Part shown: piece after piece, positions 1 to 59,325 of the stretch | Position numbering within the stretch: position 1 is the first letter of the stretch | Layout: each line of letters begins with the position of its first letter | Virus record (IMG/VR): IMGVR_UViG_3300029736_000004 | DNA length: 64,000 nt | DNA from: a virus | Taxonomy: Duplodnaviria > Heunggongvirae > Uroviricota > Caudoviricetes | Reading direction: 5' to 3' (one strand) | Notes under the pieces: model-generated | What the model was told of the DNA's origin: nothing | Databases searched by the model: none | The model's input: the letters and a program-made list of their open reading frames with translations, nothing else | Made by a program: the position numbers and the translations under genes

Positions 1-194
1 CAATTACACCAAAAAAACATGCCTGTGGAGCGGACAAGGATTCATCATGCCAACTCCGCGAATCGACGAGTCGTTAGGTGATCCAGACAACCGAATACAC
101 AAGGCACCGCCAGGACCTGAAAGAGCGAATTTTCGTAGCGCAACACCTTACGGTTTTGCAAGAGCTGTATTTGAAGCAAATAAGGAGGGAATCC

Positions 195-1112
195 GTGGCT
201 GATATTGGTGCTAAATTTATTTCTTATAGCGACAATCATCGTCCTGCGGCGGAAGCCACTATCAACCATATGCGACGTATTCGCTCGGAGGACGAATTTG
301 ATCGCCCCGTCTTTAAGTGGGTCGGCGGCAAATTTTCTGCACTGCCCATTATCTTCGAACACCTGCCCCACGGAAAACGGTTGATAGAACCTTTCGTTGG
401 AGGTGGCGCTGTTTTCACTAATGCCGGATTTAAAAGCAACCTGCTGAACGATATCAATAATGACCTGATTAACTTCTATCAGACATTGCAGCGTGAAGGG
501 CATTCTCTTATCACACTGGCATATCGTTTTTTTCAGGATTACAACTCTGCTGATGCATTTTTGAATGTTCGCAATGCATTCAACAATGGTGCTTATGATT
601 CTCTTCACCATGCGGCGGCGTTCCTGTATCTCAATCGTCATTGTTTTAATGGCGTCACTCGCTATAACCGTAAAGGAGAGTTCAACGTCGGATATGGAAA
701 GCAGAAATCTCCCTACTTCCCTCTCGCGGAAATGGAGGCGTTCCTGGATGACGATATTTCAAAGTATTCGGAGTTTGTGTCCGGCGATTTTGCTGGTGTA
801 ATTGAGGCTGCCGGGAATGATGATGTGATTTTCTGCGATCCCCCCTATGAACCATTGCCTGACACTACCGGATTTACAAATTACTCAGGGCATAGCTTTA
901 GGTTTGAAGATCAACAACGGCTGGTGTCACTGCTGGTGGATGCCCACAGACGCGGAGCGAAAATTGTGATAACAAACAGTGGTGCGCCTAACATTCGCGA
1001 ACTTTACGTTGGCAATGGCTTCAAGGTGTATCCTATGCCATCCCGTCGCTCTGTATCCTGTAAAGCATCAACGCGAATGATAGCTAACGACATTATAGCC
1101 ACGCTTAATTAA
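195..1112 (+). CDS. dam: DNA adenine methyltransferase (Dam family)
   Basis: Dam-like motifs FKWVGGK, EPFVGGGAVF and DPPY in ORF 78-1112; AAGGAGG SD 5-6 nt before in-frame GTG at 195. ATG at 78 or 270 are alternative starts. Confidence 0.8.
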   Translation: MADIGAKFISYSDNHRPAAEATINHMRRIRSEDEFDRPVFKWVGGKFSALPIIFEHLPHGKRLIEPFVGGGAVFTNAGFKSNLLNDINNDLINFYQTLQREGHSLITLAYRFFQDYNSADAFLNVRNAFNNGAYDSLHHAAAFLYLNRHCFNGVTRYNRKGEFNVGYGKQKSPYFPLAEMEAFLDDDISKYSEFVSGDFAGVIEAAGNDDVIFCDPPYEPLPDTTGFTNYSGHSFRFEDQQRLVSLLVDAHRRGAKIVITNSGAPNIRELYVGNGFKVYPMPSRRSVSCKASTRMIANDIIATLN

Positions 1113-36270: not shown

Positions 36271-36283
36271 GCTAAAAGATAGC

Positions 36284-36297
36284 TTAATTTTCTAACA
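36284..36297. promoter_or_regulatory. operator-like site (TTAATTTTCTAACA)
   Basis: Reverse-orientation perfect copy of the TGTTAGAAAATTAA 14-mer. Confidence 0.45.
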
Positions 36298-36385
36298 CAG
36301 TGTGTTTTTATACACTGTTGATCCGACGGCGCGTGATCGAGTAGGATCGCGGTCACTGCTCCGGTAGCGACTGCCAAAAAAGCAA

Positions 36386-36409
36386 AAGCCGCTGAGAAGC
36401 GGCTTTTGG
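36386..36409 (+). terminator. rho-independent terminator
   Basis: AAGCCGCT-GAGA-AGCGGCTT followed by TTGGG. Confidence 0.4.
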
Positions 36410-36468
36410 GTGTATAAATCTCCGGACATAGATTTATACGGTAGATAGATTTTTCACGGTACTATCTG

Positions 36469-37428
36469 GTGAGTATTTTAAATTCAGTTTCAGTAACTTT
36501 CAACACTTCTGAGTATAAAAACAACACTGAATACCACAAAAAAATCAAAGGTCATCAGTTGAGTTTTTTTGCTCGTCATAGCGGTTTTCTTTCCCCTTCA
36601 CATAGCGCCATTATTGCCGAGTTCGCCAACCTGGCAGGAGCTACCGATGAATACATGATCCGTCGCTCATATGCTGATATGTCCGAGATTACAGGACGCA
36701 GTATTTCTACTGTGCGCCGGGCATTTACCGAAGCGACGAAGTGCGGAATGCTTGTTAAGCAGCATCAGGTAGCGAATAACAATGCTCAGGTGTGTAACGT
36801 GTACCGGTTTACAACACAATTTCTCCACTTCATTCATGTAGCAATGGAGATAGGGAGTAAGCAGGGCATCAAATTTGCCAACGCCACAAAACTGGTTAAG
36901 CAGTTGATTTCAAAGGTTCGTTATTTTTTTGAAACTGGGAACCCCCTGTTCAAATTGAACAAGTCCCCCCATGTTCAAAATGAACAGCCAATAGAAAATA
37001 AGAGTCACTCTATAGCCAAAAGAAGAGAAAGATCATGCGCGGTTCAGCCAAAGGCTTCACCAGCAGATAGTTCTCAAGCGGATAATGGCTTGCTGGATAA
37101 AAAAACAGTAATCAGGGAAGAACATACCAACCACTGCCTGGCGGCAGCAAAAGCGAGAGCTGCAAAGCGTCGTTCAGACGAGGGGTACGCAAAACGGCAG
37201 GCTCTGTATCGTACCGCTGAAAAACTGGCAAAAAAATTTGCATGGTTACGTAGTGCTACCACAGTGAATAAGCCCAAACGATCCAGCGCCCTGGATTTCT
37301 CTATGGATTATTCTGCTTCCCAGGGATGTGCAACCATCAATGAAGCATTTGACCTGATGAAACAGCGTGGCTATCGGTCTGAATTTGACCGGGAAGACTG
37401 GTCAATTCCGGAGGGCTTTCGGGGATGA
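36469..37428 (+). CDS. HTH DNA-binding protein, possible RepL-like replication initiator
   Basis: 319 aa; HTH-like ISTVRRAFTEATKCGMLVK; preceded by operator-like site and palindromes. Confidence 0.3.
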   Translation: MSILNSVSVTFNTSEYKNNTEYHKKIKGHQLSFFARHSGFLSPSHSAIIAEFANLAGATDEYMIRRSYADMSEITGRSISTVRRAFTEATKCGMLVKQHQVANNNAQVCNVYRFTTQFLHFIHVAMEIGSKQGIKFANATKLVKQLISKVRYFFETGNPLFKLNKSPHVQNEQPIENKSHSIAKRRERSCAVQPKASPADSSQADNGLLDKKTVIREEHTNHCLAAAKARAAKRRSDEGYAKRQALYRTAEKLAKKFAWLRSATTVNKPKRSSALDFSMDYSASQGCATINEAFDLMKQRGYRSEFDREDWSIPEGFRG

Positions 37429-52517: not shown

Positions 52518-53093
52518 ATGTTAACGGCGAACGATAACGCGTATTCAGAAGATGATCTCGTTTTGAGTGACTTTATAGGGCGACGAGAATGCTGGACGCA
52601 AAAGCGCGAGGAGCTTTATGCAGCGTTAGTTCGTAAAGGCGTCAACATCGAAACCGCACAGAACGGTGATATGACAGTGGTAAGTGTTGGACTGCACGGC
52701 GTAAGCGTGTCAGCAATCAATCATGAGCCGTACATTGCGTTATCCGAGTCAATGGTAAGGTTAGTTAAGTTCCTGAAGTACACAGAAGCGAATAACGTGC
52801 TCATCGCCAAAAAGAACATCCCGTTCTCATCGGCCTTTTACTGGATGATGAAGGGGCTTGATGCCCGGCGAACATCATGGCCTAAAGGGAGCTATATATC
52901 GATGCTCCGTGGCAGTGTTGGCAGCAAAGAAAAGCTCGTCGAATTCCTGCCGGAAGAGGCATTCGATATTGTTGAAGGTTGTGATGTGATGGTTATGCCT
53001 CGCCTGGTAATGATGAATGGGGATTTACAGGCACAGACAGACTGGTTTGCAACTGGTGTTGATATTATCGCTACTGACTGGGAGGTTTTTTGA
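52518..53093 (+). CDS. hypothetical protein with C-terminal W-domain (FYWMMKGLDARRTSW ... TDWEVF)
   Basis: 191 aa; GGAGAC SD; same signature as 38776, 47861 and 60733 proteins. Confidence 0.45.
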   Translation: MLTANDNAYSEDDLVLSDFIGRRECWTQKREELYAALVRKGVNIETAQNGDMTVVSVGLHGVSVSAINHEPYIALSESMVRLVKFLKYTEANNVLIAKKNIPFSSAFYWMMKGLDARRTSWPKGSYISMLRGSVGSKEKLVEFLPEEAFDIVEGCDVMVMPRLVMMNGDLQAQTDWFATGVDIIATDWEVF

Positions 53094-53473
53094 TGTACGA
53101 GGCTACTAAATTACGCATTGAGGATGCGATGCACATTGGTTGGGACATCATCACCTGCAAGATAACATCATGCAAGGCTACACGCACAGACGCCGGACAC
53201 AAGAGCACAATATCAGGTTATGTCGTGATGTCAGTCAGGAGTGTGCGCATACGCTTCAGATGGAAAGCCTGCCAGGTTACATCATCAATGCCGCTTACCG
53301 TCGAGCAGGATTACTTATGCTTACCTGAAATAGACGGAGCGTTGCTGGTGGGTAATAGTGGTCGAAAAGCCGATTTTGAAGCCAGTCTGAAGATGGCCCA
53401 GACGGTGATCAACAAACATAAAGGGAAGTGGGAGGCAAAAGTTAAGCATGTTGTTCGTTTATCCCGCTGGTAG
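53090..53473 (+). CDS. hypothetical protein
   Basis: 127-aa ORF overlapping upstream stop. Confidence 0.4.
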   Translation: MMYEATKLRIEDAMHIGWDIITCKITSCKATRTDAGHKSTISGYVVMSVRSVRIRFRWKACQVTSSMPLTVEQDYLCLPEIDGALLVGNSGRKADFEASLKMAQTVINKHKGKWEAKVKHVVRLSRW

Positions 53474-53505
53474 TGTTAGTAAATTAATATTAATTTTCTA
53501 ATACA
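53474..53505. promoter_or_regulatory. operator-like inverted pair upstream of Lpa-like gene
   Basis: TGTTAGTAAATTAATATTAATTTTCTAATACA. Confidence 0.45.
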
Positions 53506-53580
53506 TCATGTTTTTGACAGTCTTCTCAGTATTAACAAGCTGATTATCATCCCCTCGGTCTTTTTCTATCCGGGGGATAA

Positions 53581-53973
53581 ATGGAGCAAATCAGTAGCGC
53601 CGAAATAGCGGATATCATGATCAGGGCTGACTGCTATCTGACGGTCACCGAAATCACCAGCCGTGCAAAAGCACAATATCCTCACCTTCATGTGTCGCGC
53701 GTAAACGTAAATAACATCATACGTTTTTTTGTTCGTTCCAGTCGTGCCATTTGCGAAATAGACGACCGCGTATACCCCCGGAAATATTGGTTACATGGCC
53801 TGAATGGATACCAGTTCAAGGTGCGCGGGCGCACTCCTGAATTCGGTCGGCTGTTGGTGAAAAACACCAACCGAAAGATAGAAGCTCAATTACGAAAGGA
53901 GCAGCGTCAGTTGGTGGCGATGACTAACCAGCTATGGAACGCCGCTGTGAAAAAACGTGAGGCTTCCCTATGA
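53581..53973 (+). CDS. putative late-gene activator (Lpa-like, by position)
   Basis: 130 aa immediately upstream of pacA with an operator-like palindrome in its promoter region; no motif-level support. Confidence 0.3.
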   Translation: MEQISSAEIADIMIRADCYLTVTEITSRAKAQYPHLHVSRVNVNNIIRFFVRSSRAICEIDDRVYPRKYWLHGLNGYQFKVRGRTPEFGRLLVKNTNRKIEAQLRKEQRQLVAMTNQLWNAAVKKREASL

Positions 53974-55334
53974 CGTTAATTAACTGGGAAGCGCATCGAG
54001 CTAAGTTCCTGGAGTTAAGAGAAGAAACCGGGATCACCATAAAAGAATATTGCGAGCAGCATGACCTCAGCTTTAACACCGCCAGAAAGCATCTCAATAT
54101 GAAAAAAAATGAGGTTAAGGCGAAAGCAAAGGCTGCCGGGAAAAGTACAAAACAGCGCGCAAAAAGCAGCGCCACCGGCTCAAAAAAAGAGCAAAAAAAG
54201 GCTGATAAAAGCACAGAATTTACAAAAACTGACAAATCGTTAGCTGGTGGACGGTTCCGCGCCATGCCGCAAAAACAAAATGCGGATCACAAAGAAAAGC
54301 CAAGTAATAACAACAAGATACACAAGGATGTGAAGGGATCATTTTGTGATGAAATGGGAGAAATGATCCCTAAAAGCAGCGAAAAAGCCCAACGAAACAA
54401 GGGATCATTGCAAATGATCCCTGACTCATCAGCTCAAAGCGCCACTTTGCCTGCCACCAACGTCGCCCGTGAGATGATGAAGAACGGCGCGACTGAACAT
54501 TTACGACTTGCGATACAGATGGCGCAGGAACGAGCAATTCAGTATCAGGCCATCGTTGACCAGGAAGCGGAGCGACTACAGGAAGAGATTGACGCCCTCG
54601 GCGATACACAGCCAGAGGGGATGCACCCAGGGCAGCGTCTTCTCGGCCTAATAAGCGATGCGGCCTACTACATGAATGACTTTATCAGTAGGTTGGCAGC
54701 CATCTACCAGACCGAGCAGAAGCTACGCCAGGGGGATGAAAAACTTGCGCAGGGCGCGCGTCAGCAGGCATTCAGGGAGGCTGAGGCCAGAGAAAAACTG
54801 GCGATTGCCCGCCTGCAGGCCGAGCAGCGTGGCAAGGAGATTGAGTATCGCATTGGCGCTGACGCACGCGCCGCCAGGGTTATCGCCGCCGCTATACGTA
54901 TGCGTGAGCGCGAGGAGCTGGACGATATAGGCGTAGCTGAATATATCGAGCGGCAGGGCGTCAGTGTCCCAGCTATCCTGGCGGCACGAGCGGCAAAAGC
55001 GATCTCACTTCTGGAGCCTCCGGTTTCTGACGTTAACGATGTTGATGATGAGCAACTGGATAAAGAGGCGAAGCAGTTTGCCGAGCAACAAGCTGGACTA
55101 CCACAATGGCTTGCACAACGCCGGGCTGAAGTAGCGAAAATCGTTGATAGGCTTGGGATGGGGGATTACGACCGGAACGGAGAACGTAAAGCCGGTGAAT
55201 TTGAGGCCAATGATGAAGACCTGAATATAGACCCTTCCGCCACGGCTGATATCTACGGTGATTATGACGCGGGGGATACCGGTTTTGATGCTGTAGATGA
55301 CGAGATTGTGATAGACCAGCCGGAGGATGACTAA
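53970..55334 (+). CDS. pacA: terminase small subunit (PacA-like)
   Basis: 454 aa directly upstream of the large terminase; N-terminal HTH-like region, Lys-rich linker, internal GATC-hexamer cluster. Confidence 0.6.
   Translation: MTLINWEAHRAKFLELREETGITIKEYCEQHDLSFNTARKHLNMKKNEVKAKAKAAGKSTKQRAKSSATGSKKEQKKADKSTEFTKTDKSLAGGRFRAMPQKQNADHKEKPSNNNKIHKDVKGSFCDEMGEMIPKSSEKAQRNKGSLQMIPDSSAQSATLPATNVAREMMKNGATEHLRLAIQMAQERAIQYQAIVDQEAERLQEEIDALGDTQPEGMHPGQRLLGLISDAAYYMNDFISRLAAIYQTEQKLRQGDEKLAQGARQQAFREAEAREKLAIARLQAEQRGKEIEYRIGADARAARVIAAAIRMREREELDDIGVAEYIERQGVSVPAILAARAAKAISLLEPPVSDVNDVDDEQLDKEAKQFAEQQAGLPQWLAQRRAEVAKIVDRLGMGDYDRNGERKAGEFEANDEDLNIDPSATADIYGDYDAGDTGFDAVDDEIVIDQPEDD
54333..54422. 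other. pac-like site: four GATC hexamers as two inverted pairs inside pacA
   Basis: GGGATCATT...AAATGATCCC at 54335-54370 and again at 54401-54420; GATC at 54337, 54365, 54403, 54416. Confidence 0.45.
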
Positions 55335-56842
55335 TGGCTGGTGGTCGTAAGATTAAGTGCGTCACCAGTGATCCACGTTGGCGCGATATGGTTATCAGGT
55401 ATCGATACAACTTTACCCAGGCGGTTGTCGATATTTTTGGGATGTTCCCCTCCCATCAGCAGCAGCAGATCATTCAGTCAGTGCAGGAGACGGGGAGCAG
55501 GACGACCGTTACGTCCGGACACGGAACGGGTAAGTCATCCCTTACCGCGATGTTGCTACTAATTTTTATGATCCTGTTCCCCGACGCCCGCGTCATTATT
55601 GTTGCGAACAAAATAGGCCAGGTAAAAACAGGCGTATTCAAATACGTGAAACAGTTTTGGGCGAATGCTGTTAAGCGCCACGGCTGGTTACAGACCTATT
55701 TTGTCCTGTCTGACACCATGTTTTATGAGCGTTCCCGTAAAGGGATATGGGAAGTGCTCTGTAAAGGTTATCGACTCGGTAACGAAGAGGCACTGGCGGG
55801 GGAGCACGCGGAGCATTTACTGCTAATCCTTGATGAAGCATCGGGCATATCCGATAAGGCGATTAACGTCATGACGGGGGCGTTAACGCAGAAAGATAAC
55901 CGTATGCTCATGCTTTCCCAGCCTACGCGTCCAAGCGGTTACTTTTATGAATCCCACCATTCAAGGGCAAAGGCAGAAGGCAATCCGGAAGGAGTCTGGA
56001 CGGCAATAGTCCTTAACTCTGAAGAATCTCCATTCGTTGAACCGAGCTTTATTCGTGAGAAATTGCTGGAGTACGGCGGCAGGGATTCGCTGGAGTACAT
56101 GGTTAAGGTGCTGGGCCAGTTCCCGCGTGCAATTAACGGGTATTTGCTTGGTCGTGATGAGTGCGACCGCGCCGCACGGCGTAAAGTGTTGCTGGAGAAA
56201 GATTGGGGCTGGGTAGCGACCGCTGACGTCGGTAATGGTCGCGACAAATCGGTGCTCAATATATGCAAAGTATCCGGTTATCGTGAGAAACGACGCGTTG
56301 TGAACTTTAAGATACTGGAGATGCCAGGCACTATGGACCCGTTGGCTTTTGCCGACTTTATCTATAACGAATGCACTCCTGATAAATACCCGAACATCAC
56401 CATTGCTGTGGATGCTGATGGCTTTGGTTCAGATACGTGTGCGCAGCTTGTCCGCCGTGGTGCTAATCCCGTTCGCATCCGTTGGGGTAAGCCTATGTTT
56501 GCGCTAAGAGACAGAGAACGCTTTGTCAATCAGCGTGCTTACGCCAATATTATGGCAGGGGATGCCATTAAATCAGGGCGTATGCGTATCGATAGTGACC
56601 CCAAAACCGCAGATCAGGCATCAAAAATCCCGTATATGCTTAACGAAGAAGGGAAGGTAGCGATGATGCGCAAGGAGCACATGCGGCAGAAGTTAAACAT
56701 CAAGTCGCCGGACAGATGGGATACCTACTGCTTCACTATGCTGGTGGATTACGTGCCTGCTAATGAAGACATTGGCGCAGAACTCGCAACATTCCGCGAT
56801 CAGGTGTTGGCAGAAGTGGATATTCCTGATATTGACATTTAA
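55334..56842 (+). CDS. pacB: terminase large subunit (PacB-like)
   Basis: Walker A SGHGTGKS, Walker B LLLILDEA, C-terminal nuclease-like acidic residues; GGAGGA SD. Confidence 0.75.
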   Translation: MAGGRKIKCVTSDPRWRDMVIRYRYNFTQAVVDIFGMFPSHQQQQIIQSVQETGSRTTVTSGHGTGKSSLTAMLLLIFMILFPDARVIIVANKIGQVKTGVFKYVKQFWANAVKRHGWLQTYFVLSDTMFYERSRKGIWEVLCKGYRLGNEEALAGEHAEHLLLILDEASGISDKAINVMTGALTQKDNRMLMLSQPTRPSGYFYESHHSRAKAEGNPEGVWTAIVLNSEESPFVEPSFIREKLLEYGGRDSLEYMVKVLGQFPRAINGYLLGRDECDRAARRKVLLEKDWGWVATADVGNGRDKSVLNICKVSGYREKRRVVNFKILEMPGTMDPLAFADFIYNECTPDKYPNITIAVDADGFGSDTCAQLVRRGANPVRIRWGKPMFALRDRERFVNQRAYANIMAGDAIKSGRMRIDSDPKTADQASKIPYMLNEEGKVAMMRKEHMRQKLNIKSPDRWDTYCFTMLVDYVPANEDIGAELATFRDQVLAEVDIPDIDI

Positions 56843-58102: not shown

Positions 58103-58134
58103 GCCCCGATTCCAACTTTAAATAATTGGCATTA
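58103..58134. other. rox-like site-specific recombination site
   Basis: CAACTTTAAATAAT-TGGC-ATTATTTAAAGTTA: 14-bp inverted arms with 4-bp spacer; 31/32 identical to the reverse complement of the D6 rox site as I recall it. Confidence 0.65.
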
Positions 58135-58296
58135 TTTAAAGTTAGGCTATAATCTCCAGTAAACAGGTAGTATTGACAAGGATGAAAAATCATGCCTCGA
58201 ATCAAAGGCTTGAATTTTGAAAATTAACTTATAACTACCCTGTCAGTTTTCTATTTTTCATGTAGCGTTATCTGTATATAGAGGTTTAATAGTTTC

Positions 58297-59325
58297 ATGG
58301 GTGAACTAGTTATCTCCGGCGGTTCTGGTGGTTTTCTGCGCGATATTGGCACCGAATACCAGGAAGCTGCAAAAAACTTTATGCAGTTCATGAACGACCA
58401 GGGAGCTTATGCCCCAAATACGCTTCGAGATCTCCGTCTGGTGTTTCATTCCTGGGCGCGGTGGTGTAACTCGCGCCAGCGCCCCTGGTTCCCGATTACG
58501 CCGGAAATGGCCCGCGAGTATCTTCTCCAGTTGCATGAGGCCGATCTGGCTTCGACCACCATTGATAAGCACTATGCCATGCTTAACATGCTGCTTTCGC
58601 AATGTGGCCTCCCGCCGCTCTCGGACGATAAAAGTGTGTCTCTGGCCATGCGGCGCATCCGGCGCGAAGCGGCAACGGAAAAAGGCGAGCGAACAGGCCA
58701 GGCTATACCGTTGCGGTGGGATGATCTGAAATTGCTCGACGTGTTGCTGTCCCGTTCCGAGCGGCTGGTGGACCTGCGCAATCGGGCGTTTCTCTTCGTG
58801 GCATACAATACCCTGATGCGTATGTCAGAAATCTCGCGCATCCGCGTCGGAGATCTGGAACAAACAGGTGACACTGTAACGCTGCATATTTCACACACGA
58901 AGACCATCACGACCGCCGCCGGACTTGATAAGGTGCTTTCTCGTTACACTACCGCCGTACTGAACGACTGGCTGGAGGTGTCCGGACTTCGAGAACATCC
59001 GGACGCGGTGCTATTCCCGCCAATACACCGCAGTAATAAGGCCAGAATCACGACAACGCCCCTTACTGCACCTGCAATGGAGAAAATATTCAGCGATGCC
59101 TGGGGGTTGCTGAACAAACGAGATGCCACGCCGAACAAAGGAAGATACCGGACGTGGACAGGCCATAGTGCGCGTGTTGGTGCGGCAATTGATATGGCTG
59201 AGAAACAGGTGTCAATGGTCGAGATCATGCAGGAAGGCACATGGAAAAAGCCCGAAACACTTATGCGATATTTGCGCCGTAGCGGGGCATCCGTTGGTGC
59301 AAATAGTCGCCTGATGGATTCATAA
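58297..59325 (+). CDS. dre: Cre-family tyrosine recombinase (Dre-like)
   Basis: WARWCNSRQRPWFPITPEMAREYLLQL...LPPLSDDKSVSLAMRRIRRE aligns with Cre WAAWCKLNNRKWFPAEPEDVRDYLLYL...SNAVSLVMRRIRKE; C-terminal WTGHSARVGAAIDMA catalytic region; rox-like site 160 bp upstream. Confidence 0.7.
   Translation: MGELVISGGSGGFLRDIGTEYQEAAKNFMQFMNDQGAYAPNTLRDLRLVFHSWARWCNSRQRPWFPITPEMAREYLLQLHEADLASTTIDKHYAMLNMLLSQCGLPPLSDDKSVSLAMRRIRREAATEKGERTGQAIPLRWDDLKLLDVLLSRSERLVDLRNRAFLFVAYNTLMRMSEISRIRVGDLEQTGDTVTLHISHTKTITTAAGLDKVLSRYTTAVLNDWLEVSGLREHPDAVLFPPIHRSNKARITTTPLTAPAMEKIFSDAWGLLNKRDATPNKGRYRTWTGHSARVGAAIDMAEKQVSMVEIMQEGTWKKPETLMRYLRRSGASVGANSRLMDS

What the first reader, a model, noticed from the sequence alone, without database searches (positions are those of the whole stretch)
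54333..54422. Cluster of four GATC hexamers inside pacA as a candidate pac site
Two inverted GGGATCATT / AATGATCCC pairs fall within 90 bp in the middle of the small-terminase gene, which is where P1 carries its GATC-hexamer pac site, cleaved in a Dam-methylation-dependent way. The window also encodes its own Dam methyltransferase.
Basis: partly seen in the sequence, partly recalled or inferred. Interest (0 to 1): 0.5.

Follow-up and report, generated by a model that had tools for sequence, protein, structure and literature searches.

The report
Candidate P1-type pac site in pacA
Five GATC repeats inside the small-terminase gene of a D6-like (P1-related) phage-plasmid are conserved as DNA rather than as protein, so they are most likely the site where this phage starts packaging its genome, as in phage P1 – an expected feature not annotated in the D6 GenBank records I checked.

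Summary
The 9-mer AATGATCCC occurs exactly four times in 64 kb, all within 54335-54421, as two inverted pairs. A fifth TGATCC hexamer lies at 54284-54289. The host gene (53970-55334) is pacA of a D6-like phage-plasmid: 74% aa identity to phage D6 PacA and 24% to P1 PacA. It sits in the P1 gene order lpa-pacA-pacB-c1-rox-dre.

Eleven D6-family lineages, down to 34% PacA identity, each carry 4-8 GATC sites in the same 5' third of pacA. Nearly all fit AA(T/A)GATCCC, in both orientations and all three codon phases. Positions are partly conserved and partly turned over.

Synonymous-codon resampling, third-position conservation and the lack of compensatory changes in the hairpin arms all point to selection on the DNA. 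They argue against a peptide motif or an RNA structure. The cluster lies in the part of PacA predicted to be a disordered linker. A Dam-family methylase is encoded at 78-1112.

Best reading: a P1-type, probably Dam-sensitive, pac recognition site. It differs from P1 in three ways: the flank is GATCC rather than GATCA/G, the layout is compact rather than 4+3, and there is no IHF consensus. Cleavage and methylation dependence are inferred, not shown. This is a new member of a known kind, of moderate-to-low interest.

The parts
54284..54422 (+). Whole candidate pac recognition region: five GATC elements in 139 bp. It lies inside pacA codons 105-151, which encode part of the predicted disordered linker of PacA.
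   Evidence: repeats. (densest GATC cluster of the window). (conservation). (residues 49-160 have pLDDT below 50).
54284..54289 (-). Element 1: the + strand reads GGATCA, i.e. TGATCC on the minus strand. GATC is in codon phase 0 (GAT-CAC, Asp106-His107).
   Evidence: GGATCA is invariant in 7 collinear lineages. A '<' element at the equivalent DH/DQ column also occurs in the 34-35% identity lineages L091 and L092.
54334..54344 (-). Element 2: the + strand reads AGGGATCATTT, the reverse complement of AAATGATCCCT. GATC is in codon phase 1 (gGA-TCa, Gly123-Ser124, using the less common GGA codon).
   Evidence: It forms a 28-bp-spaced inverted pair with element 3, and this pair is kept down to 44% PacA identity (L088, L089, L090).
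54361..54371 (+). Element 3: AAATGATCCCT. GATC is in codon phase 2 (atG-ATC-CCt, Met132-Ile133-Pro134).
   Evidence: AAATGATCCC is a 10-nt invariant run in 7 collinear lineages. Ile133 is invariant in 16 PacA sequences. A '>' element at this column is present in all 11 D6-family lineages.
54400..54409 (-). Element 4: the + strand reads AGGGATCATT. GATC is in codon phase 1 (Gly145-Ser146).
   Evidence: The GATC is kept in D6 (GGGATCTTC) and in L028 and L087 (AGAGATCAT), where the amino acid changes from Gly to Arg. It is absent at the equivalent position in L088-L090.
54412..54422 (+). Element 5: AAATGATCCCT. GATC is in codon phase 2 (Met149-Ile150-Pro151).
   Evidence: AATGATC is invariant. 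It is present at the equivalent column in all lineages except L091 and L092.
53970..55334 (+). pacA (454 aa), the small terminase/pacase A subunit. It has an N-terminal helical, HTH-like domain (residues 1-48), a predicted disordered linker (49-160) and a long helical C-terminal part.
55334..56842 (+). pacB (502 aa), the large terminase/pacase B subunit. Its start overlaps the stop codon of pacA.
   Evidence: (phrog_2 terminase large subunit, 4.4e-41). (D6 annotation).
53581..53973 (+). lpa (late promoter activating protein). It overlaps the pacA start by 4 nt.
   Evidence: PF25716 BPP1_LPA, 3.7e-50..
78..1112 (+). Dam-family N6-adenine DNA methyltransferase. It is the presumed phage-encoded methylase for the GATC elements.
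58113..58144 (.). rox-like 32-bp recombination site, 1 mismatch from D6 rox. It lies 3.7 kb downstream of the cluster, much as lox lies about 4.0 kb downstream of pac in P1.
58297..59325 (+). Dre/Cre-like tyrosine recombinase (synteny context).
   Evidence: D6 dre annotation.

Best explanation
The 139-bp stretch 54284-54422 is the packaging-initiation (pac) recognition site of this D6-like phage-plasmid. It is the counterpart of the P1 pac site.

**Proposed mechanism (inferred by analogy with P1)**
- PacA, through its N-terminal helical domain, binds the repeated elements together with PacB. The elements have the family consensus AA(T/A)GATCCC.
- The complex cuts the concatemer in or next to the cluster.
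- Headful packaging then proceeds towards pacB-c1-rox. This places rox inside the terminal redundancy of the first headful.
- Each element contains a Dam site. Full methylation, by host Dam and by the phage's own Dam-family enzyme, would license cleavage. Freshly replicated, hemimethylated copies would be bound but not cut. This limits the number of initiations per concatemer.

**Shown here**
- The repeats exist.
- They are under DNA-level selection.
- They are conserved, with turnover, across the whole D6 family.
- They lie in the linker-coding part of pacA.
- The pacA/pacB, Dam and rox context is present.

**Inferred only**
- Binding by PacA.
- The position of the cut.
- The direction of packaging.
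- The dependence on methylation.
For: 1. **Exact repeat.** The 9-mer occurs four times only here in 64 kb, and a fifth hexamer is adjacent.
2. **Gene and synteny.** PacA and PacB homologues lie in the order lpa-pacA-pacB-c1-rox-dre, as in D6 and P1.
3. **Equivalent position.** P1's pac cleavage sites and IHF site are annotated within pacA (offsets about 255-284). Its seven TGATCA/G hexamers lie at GATC offsets 194-347 of the gene. P1's cluster spans offsets about 193-352, against 314-452 here. The P1 site is described in PMC10028697.
4. **Close relatives.** 21 of 23 distinct D6-like sequences keep all five GATCs at identical offsets, although this is the most variable part of the gene.
5. **Distant lineages.** Lineages with 67, 55, 54, 47, 44, 35 and 34% PacA identity each have 4-8 GATCs in codons 50-165. 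56 of 60 oriented elements are followed by C and 48 of 60 by CC, and they have an A-rich 5' flank. In 10 of 11 D6-family loci the densest GATCC/GGATC cluster of the 5-10 kb locus falls in this part of pacA. The eleventh ties.
6. **Selection on the DNA.**
   - GATC occurs in all three codon phases and both orientations, encoding different peptides (DH, GS/RS, MIP/KIP, DPP).
   - With the protein held fixed and codons resampled from pacA+pacB usage, the window has 5 GATCs against a mean of 1.77. Only 23 of 5000 resamples reach 5. The validated P1 site scores 284 of 5000 in the same test, so the test is conservative.
   - Invariant columns number 36 of 45 inside the five 9-mers against 105 of 305 outside (P=8e-9). 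At third codon positions the figures are 13 of 15 against 21 of 101 (P=1e-6).
7. **Disordered linker.** The cluster lies wholly in the PacA segment with pLDDT below 50 (residues 49-160), where protein constraint is weak.
8. **Methylase.** A Dam-family methylase orthologous to the Dam part of P1 Dmt is encoded at 78-1112.
9. **Distance to rox.** rox lies 3.7 kb downstream, against 4.0 kb from pac to lox in P1.
Against: - No DNA end, binding or methylation effect has been measured. Everything functional is by analogy.
- The hexamer is TGATCC, whereas all seven P1 hexamers have A or G at that position.
- This lineage lacks P1's bipartite 4+3 layout with a spacer of about 90 bp. The element-free gaps are only about 48, 24, 34 and 9 bp, so there is no obvious place for a P1-like cleavage region.
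- No IHF consensus with 1 mismatch or fewer lies inside 54250-54450.
- GATC density alone is not significant at window scale.
- The conservation statistics use related sequences, and the elements were defined on the window sequence, so the P values are optimistic.
- Neither D6 GenBank record annotates a pac site.
Confidence: 0.75

Rival explanations
1. The repeats are a by-product of a repeated short peptide motif in the PacA linker ((K/R)GS...MIP twice, plus DH) that is needed for protein function, for example docking of PacB or the portal. On this reading the DNA itself has no role.
For: - The elements do encode recurring peptides: G-S, M-I-P, D-H.
- Ile133 is invariant across 16 PacA sequences.
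- Short linear motifs are typical of disordered linkers.
Against: - Every peptide able to encode GATC does so. Only 23 of 5000 synonymous resamples of the same protein reach 5 GATCs.
- Third codon positions inside the elements are 87% invariant, against 21% outside.
- Gly is always the less common GGA codon, or becomes Arg AGA, which changes the amino acid but keeps GATC.
- The same DNA motif appears in three reading phases and both orientations, encoding unrelated peptides (DPP, TIP, RS, DH) at non-homologous positions in distant lineages.
- P1's validated pac hexamers show the same kind of pattern.
Confidence: 0.07
2. The two inverted pairs act as hairpins. They would work either in the pacA mRNA (translational or stability control of pacA/pacB) or as DNA cruciforms, rather than as protein-binding repeats.
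For: - There are perfect 11-nt and 10-nt inverted repeats.
- The RNA fold of 54324-54432 is -34.2 kcal/mol with z=-4.2.
- The second pair is flagged as a terminator-like hairpin on the minus strand.
Against: - In 11 related sequences, 10 of 21 pairs depart only through unpaired cells. Only one terminal pair changes on both sides, and the covariation score is no better than for slid structures.
- D6 breaks both stems (GGAGATCATT against AATGATCCCC; GGGATCTTC against AATGATCCC) yet keeps every GATC.
- Elements 1 and 4 have no partner, or are absent, in other lineages, while the element count stays at 4-8.
- There is no Rfam match.
- Terminator-like calls in the region are at chance level: 3 against 2.4 expected.
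Confidence: 0.05
3. The cluster is a Dam/SeqA-sensitive regulatory or timing element, for example one that sequesters or silences pacA-pacB after replication. On this reading it is not the site of terminase recognition or cleavage, and the real pac lies elsewhere.
For: - Clusters of GATC are classic SeqA/Dam targets (established knowledge, from memory).
- There is no IHF site and no obvious cleavage spacer in this lineage.
- No DNA end has been mapped.
Against: - Conservation extends well beyond GATC to an asymmetric 9-10-mer (AAWGATCCC). This implies a sequence-specific reader other than SeqA or Dam.
- The location matches the validated P1 pac.
- No other repeated motif cluster was seen in the terminase region.
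Confidence: 0.1

Closest known systems
Bacteriophage P1 pac site (161-162 bp inside pacA; seven TGATCA/G hexamers arranged HEX4 + HEX3; IHF site; cleavage by PacA+PacB regulated by Dam methylation). Sources: PMC10028697, which cites Sternberg & Coulby 1987/1988 and Skorupski 1994, and the NC_005856 annotation.
   Same: - It lies inside the 5' third of the pacA homologue, in the linker-coding region.
- It consists of multiple short repeats, each centred on TGATC.
- Its overall size is similar: 139 bp against about 160 bp.
- pacB is adjacent, and the gene order lpa-pacA-pacB-c1-recombination site is the same.
- The phage encodes a Dam-family methylase 70% identical to the Dam part of P1 Dmt.
- The distance to rox/lox is 3.7 kb against 4.0 kb.
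   Different: - The base after GATC is C in 56 of 60 D6-family elements and A or G in 7 of 7 P1 elements.
- The conserved element is longer and asymmetric (AAWGATCCC), and it occurs in both orientations as inverted pairs.
- There are five elements in one compact cluster instead of 4+3 around a spacer of about 90 bp.
- There is no IHF consensus.
- lpa overlaps pacA, so there is no LPpac-type intergenic promoter.
- PacA is only 24% identical to P1 PacA.
The equivalent stretch of phage D6 pacA (MF356679 / AY753669) and about 100 D6-like plasmid prophages in PLSDB
   Same: - The five GATCs lie at the same offsets (315, 367, 395, 433, 446) with no indels.
- Elements 3 and 5 are identical (AATGATCCC).
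- The synteny is the same and includes rox/dre.
   Different: - The window belongs to a sub-lineage whose pacA is 77.6% nt and 74% aa identical to D6. It is 98% identical to 7 E. coli and E. marmotae plasmids.
- In this sub-lineage all four downstream elements are the same exact 10-11-mer. In D6, elements 2 and 4 are degenerate (AGATCATT, GGGATCTTC).
- Neither D6 record annotates a pac site.
pac sites embedded in small-terminase genes of other headful phages (P22 pac in gene 3; SPP1 pacL/pacC/pacR at gene 1). From general knowledge, not tested here.
   Same: The recognition site lies within or at the small-terminase gene. In SPP1, repeated binding boxes flank the cut.
   Different: Those sites are not GATC-based and are not known to be methylation-gated. 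Their terminases are unrelated in sequence.

Membership tests
P1-type pac site | Lies within the coding sequence of the pacase A (small terminase) gene, in its 5' part, next to pacB | tested here: met
   The cluster lies at offsets 314-452 of the 1365-nt pacA. P1's hexamers lie at about 193-352 of 1194 nt. pacB follows immediately.
P1-type pac site | Several repeated short elements, each containing a Dam site (GATC) | tested here: met
   There are five elements, four of them an exact 10-11-mer. The GATCs are conserved in relatives.
P1-type pac site | Element sequence TGATCA/G | tested here: not met
   All five elements read TGATCC. The family consensus is AA(T/A)GATCCC, with C after GATC in 56 of 60 elements, against A or G in 7 of 7 P1 elements. 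Each element matches the P1 hexamer at 5 of 6 positions.
P1-type pac site | Bipartite layout: two hexamer groups (4 and 3) flanking a spacer of about 90 bp that holds the cleavage site | tested here: not met
   In the window the GATC starts are at offsets 315, 367, 395, 433 and 446, so the largest element-free gap is about 48 bp. Relatives L088-L094 are bipartite, with 2-3 elements at 156-236 and 3-5 at 370-470.
P1-type pac site | IHF binding site next to the cleavage region | tested here: not met
   No WATCAANNNNTTR match with 1 mismatch or fewer lies between 53546 and 54682. By eye, there is only a 2-mismatch match (TAACAACAAGATA, about 54306-54318) that resembles the 1-mismatch P1 site AAACAAAGAGTTA.
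P1-type pac site | Cut by PacA+PacB, producing the packaged end | not testable with these tools
   Homologues of both proteins are present. No DNA ends could be mapped. One draft assembly breaks right after element 1, which is anecdotal.
P1-type pac site | Cleavage requires full adenine methylation of the hexamers | not testable with these tools
   The support is only circumstantial. Each element contains GATC, and a Dam-family methylase is encoded at 78-1112.
P1-type pac site | Lies a few kb upstream of the Cre/lox-type recombination site, so that the site falls in the terminal redundancy of the first headful | tested here: met
   rox-like site at 58113-58144, 3.7 kb downstream. In P1, lox is 3.98 kb from the pac cut. 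The direction of packaging is assumed from P1.
D6-like (P1-related) plasmid prophage | D6-type pacA/pacB, c1, rox and Dre recombinase, and lpa | tested here: met
   77.6% nt and 74% aa identity to D6 pacA. rox has 1 mismatch. A Phage_integrase-family recombinase is present, as is lpa. The window is 98% identical to seven plasmids of 90-94 kb.

The most novel reading that the evidence does not exclude
The D6 family and the P1 family use homologous terminases that read the same Dam-containing core (TGATC) but opposite flanks: C/CC in D6, A/G in P1. P1-like and D6-like phage-plasmids sharing a cell would then be orthogonal for packaging. On this reading the pac site is a set of 4-8 individually replaceable elements that turn over by gain and loss inside the region coding for a disordered PacA linker. 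It would be a dual-coding region where the DNA function, not the protein, sets the conserved residues (DH, GS, MIP).
Probability: 0.45. Interest if true: 0.45.

Novelty: new member of a known kind. Interest (0 to 1): 0.3.

Why it matters
**Practical value.** D6-like plasmid prophages are common in E. coli, Salmonella and relatives; PLSDB alone holds 110 matches. A defined pac site would allow three things:
- building D6-based phagemids or transducing vectors;
- removing self-packaging by synonymous recoding, as was done for P1;
- predicting which host or plasmid sequences are mis-packaged.

**Conceptual value.** The comparison gives a natural specificity series for a methylation-gated terminase recognition site (GATCC against GATCA/G). 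It is also a clear case of a DNA signal overlaid on a disordered-linker coding region, with element turnover.

It does not change the current understanding of P1-type packaging.

Tried and rejected
- **IHF scan.** WATCAANNNNTTR with 1 mismatch or fewer gave nothing inside the cluster, and the window-wide count was at chance.
- **GATC density as a statistic.** It is the densest cluster in the window but is not significant on its own, so I dropped it as an argument.
- **RNA-structure reading.** The fold is strong, but there is no compensatory variation and no Rfam family.
- **Promoter/terminator scan.** Only chance-level hits. The 'terminator' is the element 4/5 inverted pair.
- **Pfam and NCBIfam on PacA and PacB.** No family was found. 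PHROGs did recognise them.
- **PDB searches for PacA.** The sequence search found nothing. The Foldseek search of the AlphaFold model found nothing significant: the best E-value was 0.95, and some weak non-significant hits were HTH domains.
- **Genome-contig scan.** It returned only two P1-type loci.
- **Truncated PacA clusters (P0011, P0023 and others).** I checked them as possible markers of breaks at pac. They are internal-start or frameshift calls and are uninformative.
- **Contig-end survey in IMG/VR.** I found one assembly break immediately 3' of element 1. With an estimated chance probability of about 0.1, it counts only as an anecdote.
- **Literature.** The three papers most likely to describe a D6 pac site or give P1 details are not held: Sauer & McDermott 2004 (PMC534624), Gilcrease & Casjens 2018 (PMC5800970) and Lobocka 2004 (PMC523184). 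Full-text searches found no description of a D6-family pac site. Prior description therefore cannot be excluded.
Full report
**Observation**

The sequence at 54333-54422 reads aAGGGATCATTTtgtgatgaaatgggagAAATGATCCCTaaaagcagcgaaaaagcccaacgaaacaAGGGATCATTgcaAATGATCCCT. The 9-mer AATGATCCC occurs with no mismatch at 54335-43(-), 54362-70(+), 54401-09(-) and 54413-21(+), and nowhere else in the 64 kb. One-mismatch matches elsewhere are at chance level: 16 in all (4 exact plus 12 with one mismatch), against 15.8 expected.

The repeat finder extends the arms to 11 nt (16 nt apart) and 10 nt (3 nt apart). A fifth TGATCC hexamer lies at 54284-89(-), so the cluster is 54284-54422.

This is the densest GATC cluster in the window, with 5 sites in 140 bp. 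However, 241 randomly placed sites reach 5 in 32% of trials. The exact extended repeat and its conservation carry the argument, not GATC density.

**What the element is**

- ORF 53970-55334 (454 aa) matches phrog_1711 'terminase' at 1.9e-167.
- ORF 55334-56842 matches terminase large-subunit families.
- The upstream ORF is Lpa (PF25716).
- pacA is 77.6% nt and 74% aa identical to phage D6 pacA.
- It is 98% identical to seven 90-94-kb E. coli and E. marmotae plasmids, and about 77% identical to 103 further plasmids.
- It is 24% identical to P1 PacA, with clear N- and C-terminal homology.
- Downstream lie c1, a rox-like 32-mer at 58113-58144 (1 mismatch to D6 rox) and a Dre/Cre-like recombinase.

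The window is therefore part of a D6-like, P1-related plasmid prophage with the P1 gene order lpa-pacA-pacB-c1-lox/rox.

A Dam-family methylase is encoded at 78-1112. It scores 231.7 bits on TIGR00571 against a cut-off of 114.85, matches PF02086, and is 70% identical to the Dam part of P1 Dmt and to the D6 adenine methylase.

**Comparison with the validated P1 site**

In NC_005856 the pac cleavage positions and the IHF site are annotated inside pacA. The seven TGATCA/G hexamers lie at GATC offsets 194, 201, 213, 228 | 324, 336, 347. PMC10028697 summarises the biology:
- The site is 161 bp with two hexamer groups, HEX4 and HEX3.
- IHF and HU take part.
- A hemimethylated site is bound, and a fully methylated site is cut.
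- Synonymous recoding of the hexamers lowers P1 titre about 9-fold.

The window's cluster occupies the same linker-coding part of the homologous gene, at offsets 314-452.

**Conservation in relatives**

Among 23 distinct D6-like sequences, 21 keep all five GATCs at identical offsets and two have lost one each. This is the most variable part of the gene: only 27-52% of columns are invariant at offsets 180-480, against 55-85% further downstream.

I then fetched pacA loci with 67, 55, 54, 47, 44, 35 and 34% PacA identity. All have lpa-pacA-pacB-c1 synteny.
- Each carries 4-8 GATCs in codons 50-165.
- Of 60 orientable elements, 56 have C and 48 have CC after GATC. 46 have T and 13 have A before it, preceded by A-rich positions. 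The consensus is AA(T/A)GATCCC.
- The elements occur in both orientations, typically as convergent pairs.
- The 28-bp-spaced pair equivalent to elements 2 and 3 persists down to 44% identity.
- Element 3 is present in all eleven lineages.
- Other elements are lineage-specific. The 44-55% lineages are bipartite, with 2-3 elements at offsets 156-236 and 3-5 at 370-470. The 34-35% lineages have five at 183-267 and one at 368.
- In 10 of 11 D6-family loci, the densest GATCC/GGATC cluster of the 5-10 kb around pacA is this one. The eleventh ties.

A roughly constant number of elements with shifting positions is the pattern expected of a multi-site protein-binding region.

**DNA-level or protein-level constraint**

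- GATC sits in codon phase 0 (GAT-CAC, D-H), phase 1 (gGA-TCa, G-S) and phase 2 (atG-ATC-CCt, M-I-P) within this one cluster. In distant lineages the same DNA motif encodes DPP, TIP, KIP and RS.
- With the protein held fixed and codons redrawn from pacA+pacB usage, the window should have 1.77 GATCs in codons 50-165. It has 5, the maximum possible, and only 23 of 5000 resamples reach that. The other lineages give between 2 and 265 of 5000. The validated P1 site gives 284 of 5000, so the test is conservative.
- Across seven collinear representatives, 36 of 45 columns inside the five 9-mers are invariant, against 105 of 305 outside (Fisher P=8e-9). At third codon positions the figures are 13 of 15 against 21 of 101 (P=1e-6). 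These P values are optimistic because the sequences are related and the elements were defined on the window.
- An AlphaFold model built on 16 homologues places the whole cluster (codons 105-151) in a segment with pLDDT below 50 (residues 49-160). That segment lies between a confident N-terminal three-helix domain and a long helical C-terminal part. The protein is therefore probably tolerant here.

**Hairpin alternative**

The window RNA folds well (z=-4.2). Across 11 relatives, however, substitutions in the arms are not compensated. Ten of 21 pairs depart only by becoming unpaired, and one terminal pair changes on both sides. D6 breaks both stems while keeping every GATC. Partner-less elements are common in other lineages. 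There is no Rfam hit. Promoter and terminator-like calls are at chance.

**Differences from P1**

- The base after GATC is C here, and never C in P1.
- The element is longer and asymmetric.
- This lineage has one compact cluster rather than 4+3 around a spacer of about 90 bp.
- No IHF consensus with 1 mismatch or fewer lies within it.
- lpa overlaps pacA, so there is no intergenic LPpac-type promoter.

These differences fail some literal membership criteria for 'the P1 pac site'. They do not weaken the functional analogy. Diverged terminases are expected to read diverged sites, and the more distant D6-family lineages do have a P1-like bipartite layout.

**Most likely mechanism (inferred)**

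PacA and PacB bind the AAWGATCCC elements, and methylation of the embedded GATCs by host Dam and the phage Dam homologue gates cleavage. Headful packaging then runs towards pacB-c1-rox. rox lies 3.7 kb away, against 4.0 kb from pac to lox in P1, so it would fall in the terminal redundancy of the first headful. The packaging direction in P1 is from established knowledge, recalled from memory. The position of the cut cannot be deduced.

The only hint is anecdotal. In IMG genome 2537562191 a D6-type plasmid assembly is broken with a 10-nt overlap immediately 3' of element 1's GATC. I estimate that a break landing in the cluster by chance is about a 1-in-10 event across the contigs surveyed.

**Novelty and literature**

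Neither D6 GenBank record annotates a pac site. Full-text searches found no description of one. The two D6 papers and the P1 genome paper are not in the held library, so earlier mention cannot be excluded.

This is a new member of a known kind: a plausible, well-supported but unproven pac site for the D6 family. It is of practical use, and its flank-specificity difference from P1 is mildly interesting.

**Scores**

- Interest: 0.3.
- Confidence that this is the terminase recognition (pac) region: about 0.75.

Noticed in passing
L034/L155 (IMGVR_UViG_2537562191_000026, contig end) and L106 (IMGVR_UViG_2537562191_000021, contig start): In one isolate assembly a D6-type plasmid is split inside pacA. 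One contig ends ...cttcGGATCATGAAAATAA and the other begins ATGAAAATAATGCAAAT.... The two overlap by 10 nt, and the break falls immediately 3' of element 1's GATC. This could reflect a real DNA end at pac, or it could be coincidence (my estimate of chance is about 0.1).
   Followed up: partly
window 58113-58144 and 58297-59325: A rox-like 32-bp site differs from D6 rox by one base at an outer position. Next to it lies a Dre/Cre-like tyrosine recombinase (342 aa).
   Followed up: partly
window 52518-53093 (+): A 191-aa protein with a Tad2-like (Thoeris anti-defence 2) domain (PF11195, 4.4e-10) lies two genes upstream of lpa. The same gene is present at this position in several D6-family loci (L087, L093, L094, L095).
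   Followed up: no
window 54216-54236 (pacA offsets 247-266): A second island of DNA conservation in the variable linker region: AATTTACA(A/G)AAA(C/T)TGACAA, coding E/K-F-T-K/E-T/I-D. It is invariant apart from two wobble sites in the collinear lineages. A related peptide (FT/LT-K-x-D) is kept down to 44% identity. It is not clear whether the constraint is on the protein or the DNA.
   Followed up: partly
window 36300-36470: An intergenic region holds three GATCs within 29 bp (36320, 36335, 36345). They are followed by a strong hairpin with a T-run (about 36375-36412) and two 17-bp direct repeats ATAGATTTATACGGTAG / ATAGATTTTTCACGGTA (36428-36461) just upstream of ORF 36469-37428, which has no Pfam hit. 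It may be a regulatory or operator region.
   Followed up: partly
window 53470-53560 and 36275-36300: Sequences resembling P1 C1-operator half-sites (AATTTTCTAATACA, AATTTTCTAACACA) lie upstream of lpa and in the 36.3-kb intergenic region. This was judged by eye only. lpa overlaps pacA by 4 nt, so pacA may be co-transcribed with lpa rather than from its own late promoter as in P1.
   Followed up: no
proteins P0011 (326 aa, 310 member sequences) and P0023: Many database entries named 'DNA pacase A subunit' start at the internal Met just before element 3 (MAKMIPEEDK...). These are probably mis-called starts or frameshifts in the A-rich homopolymer runs of the linker region.
   Followed up: no
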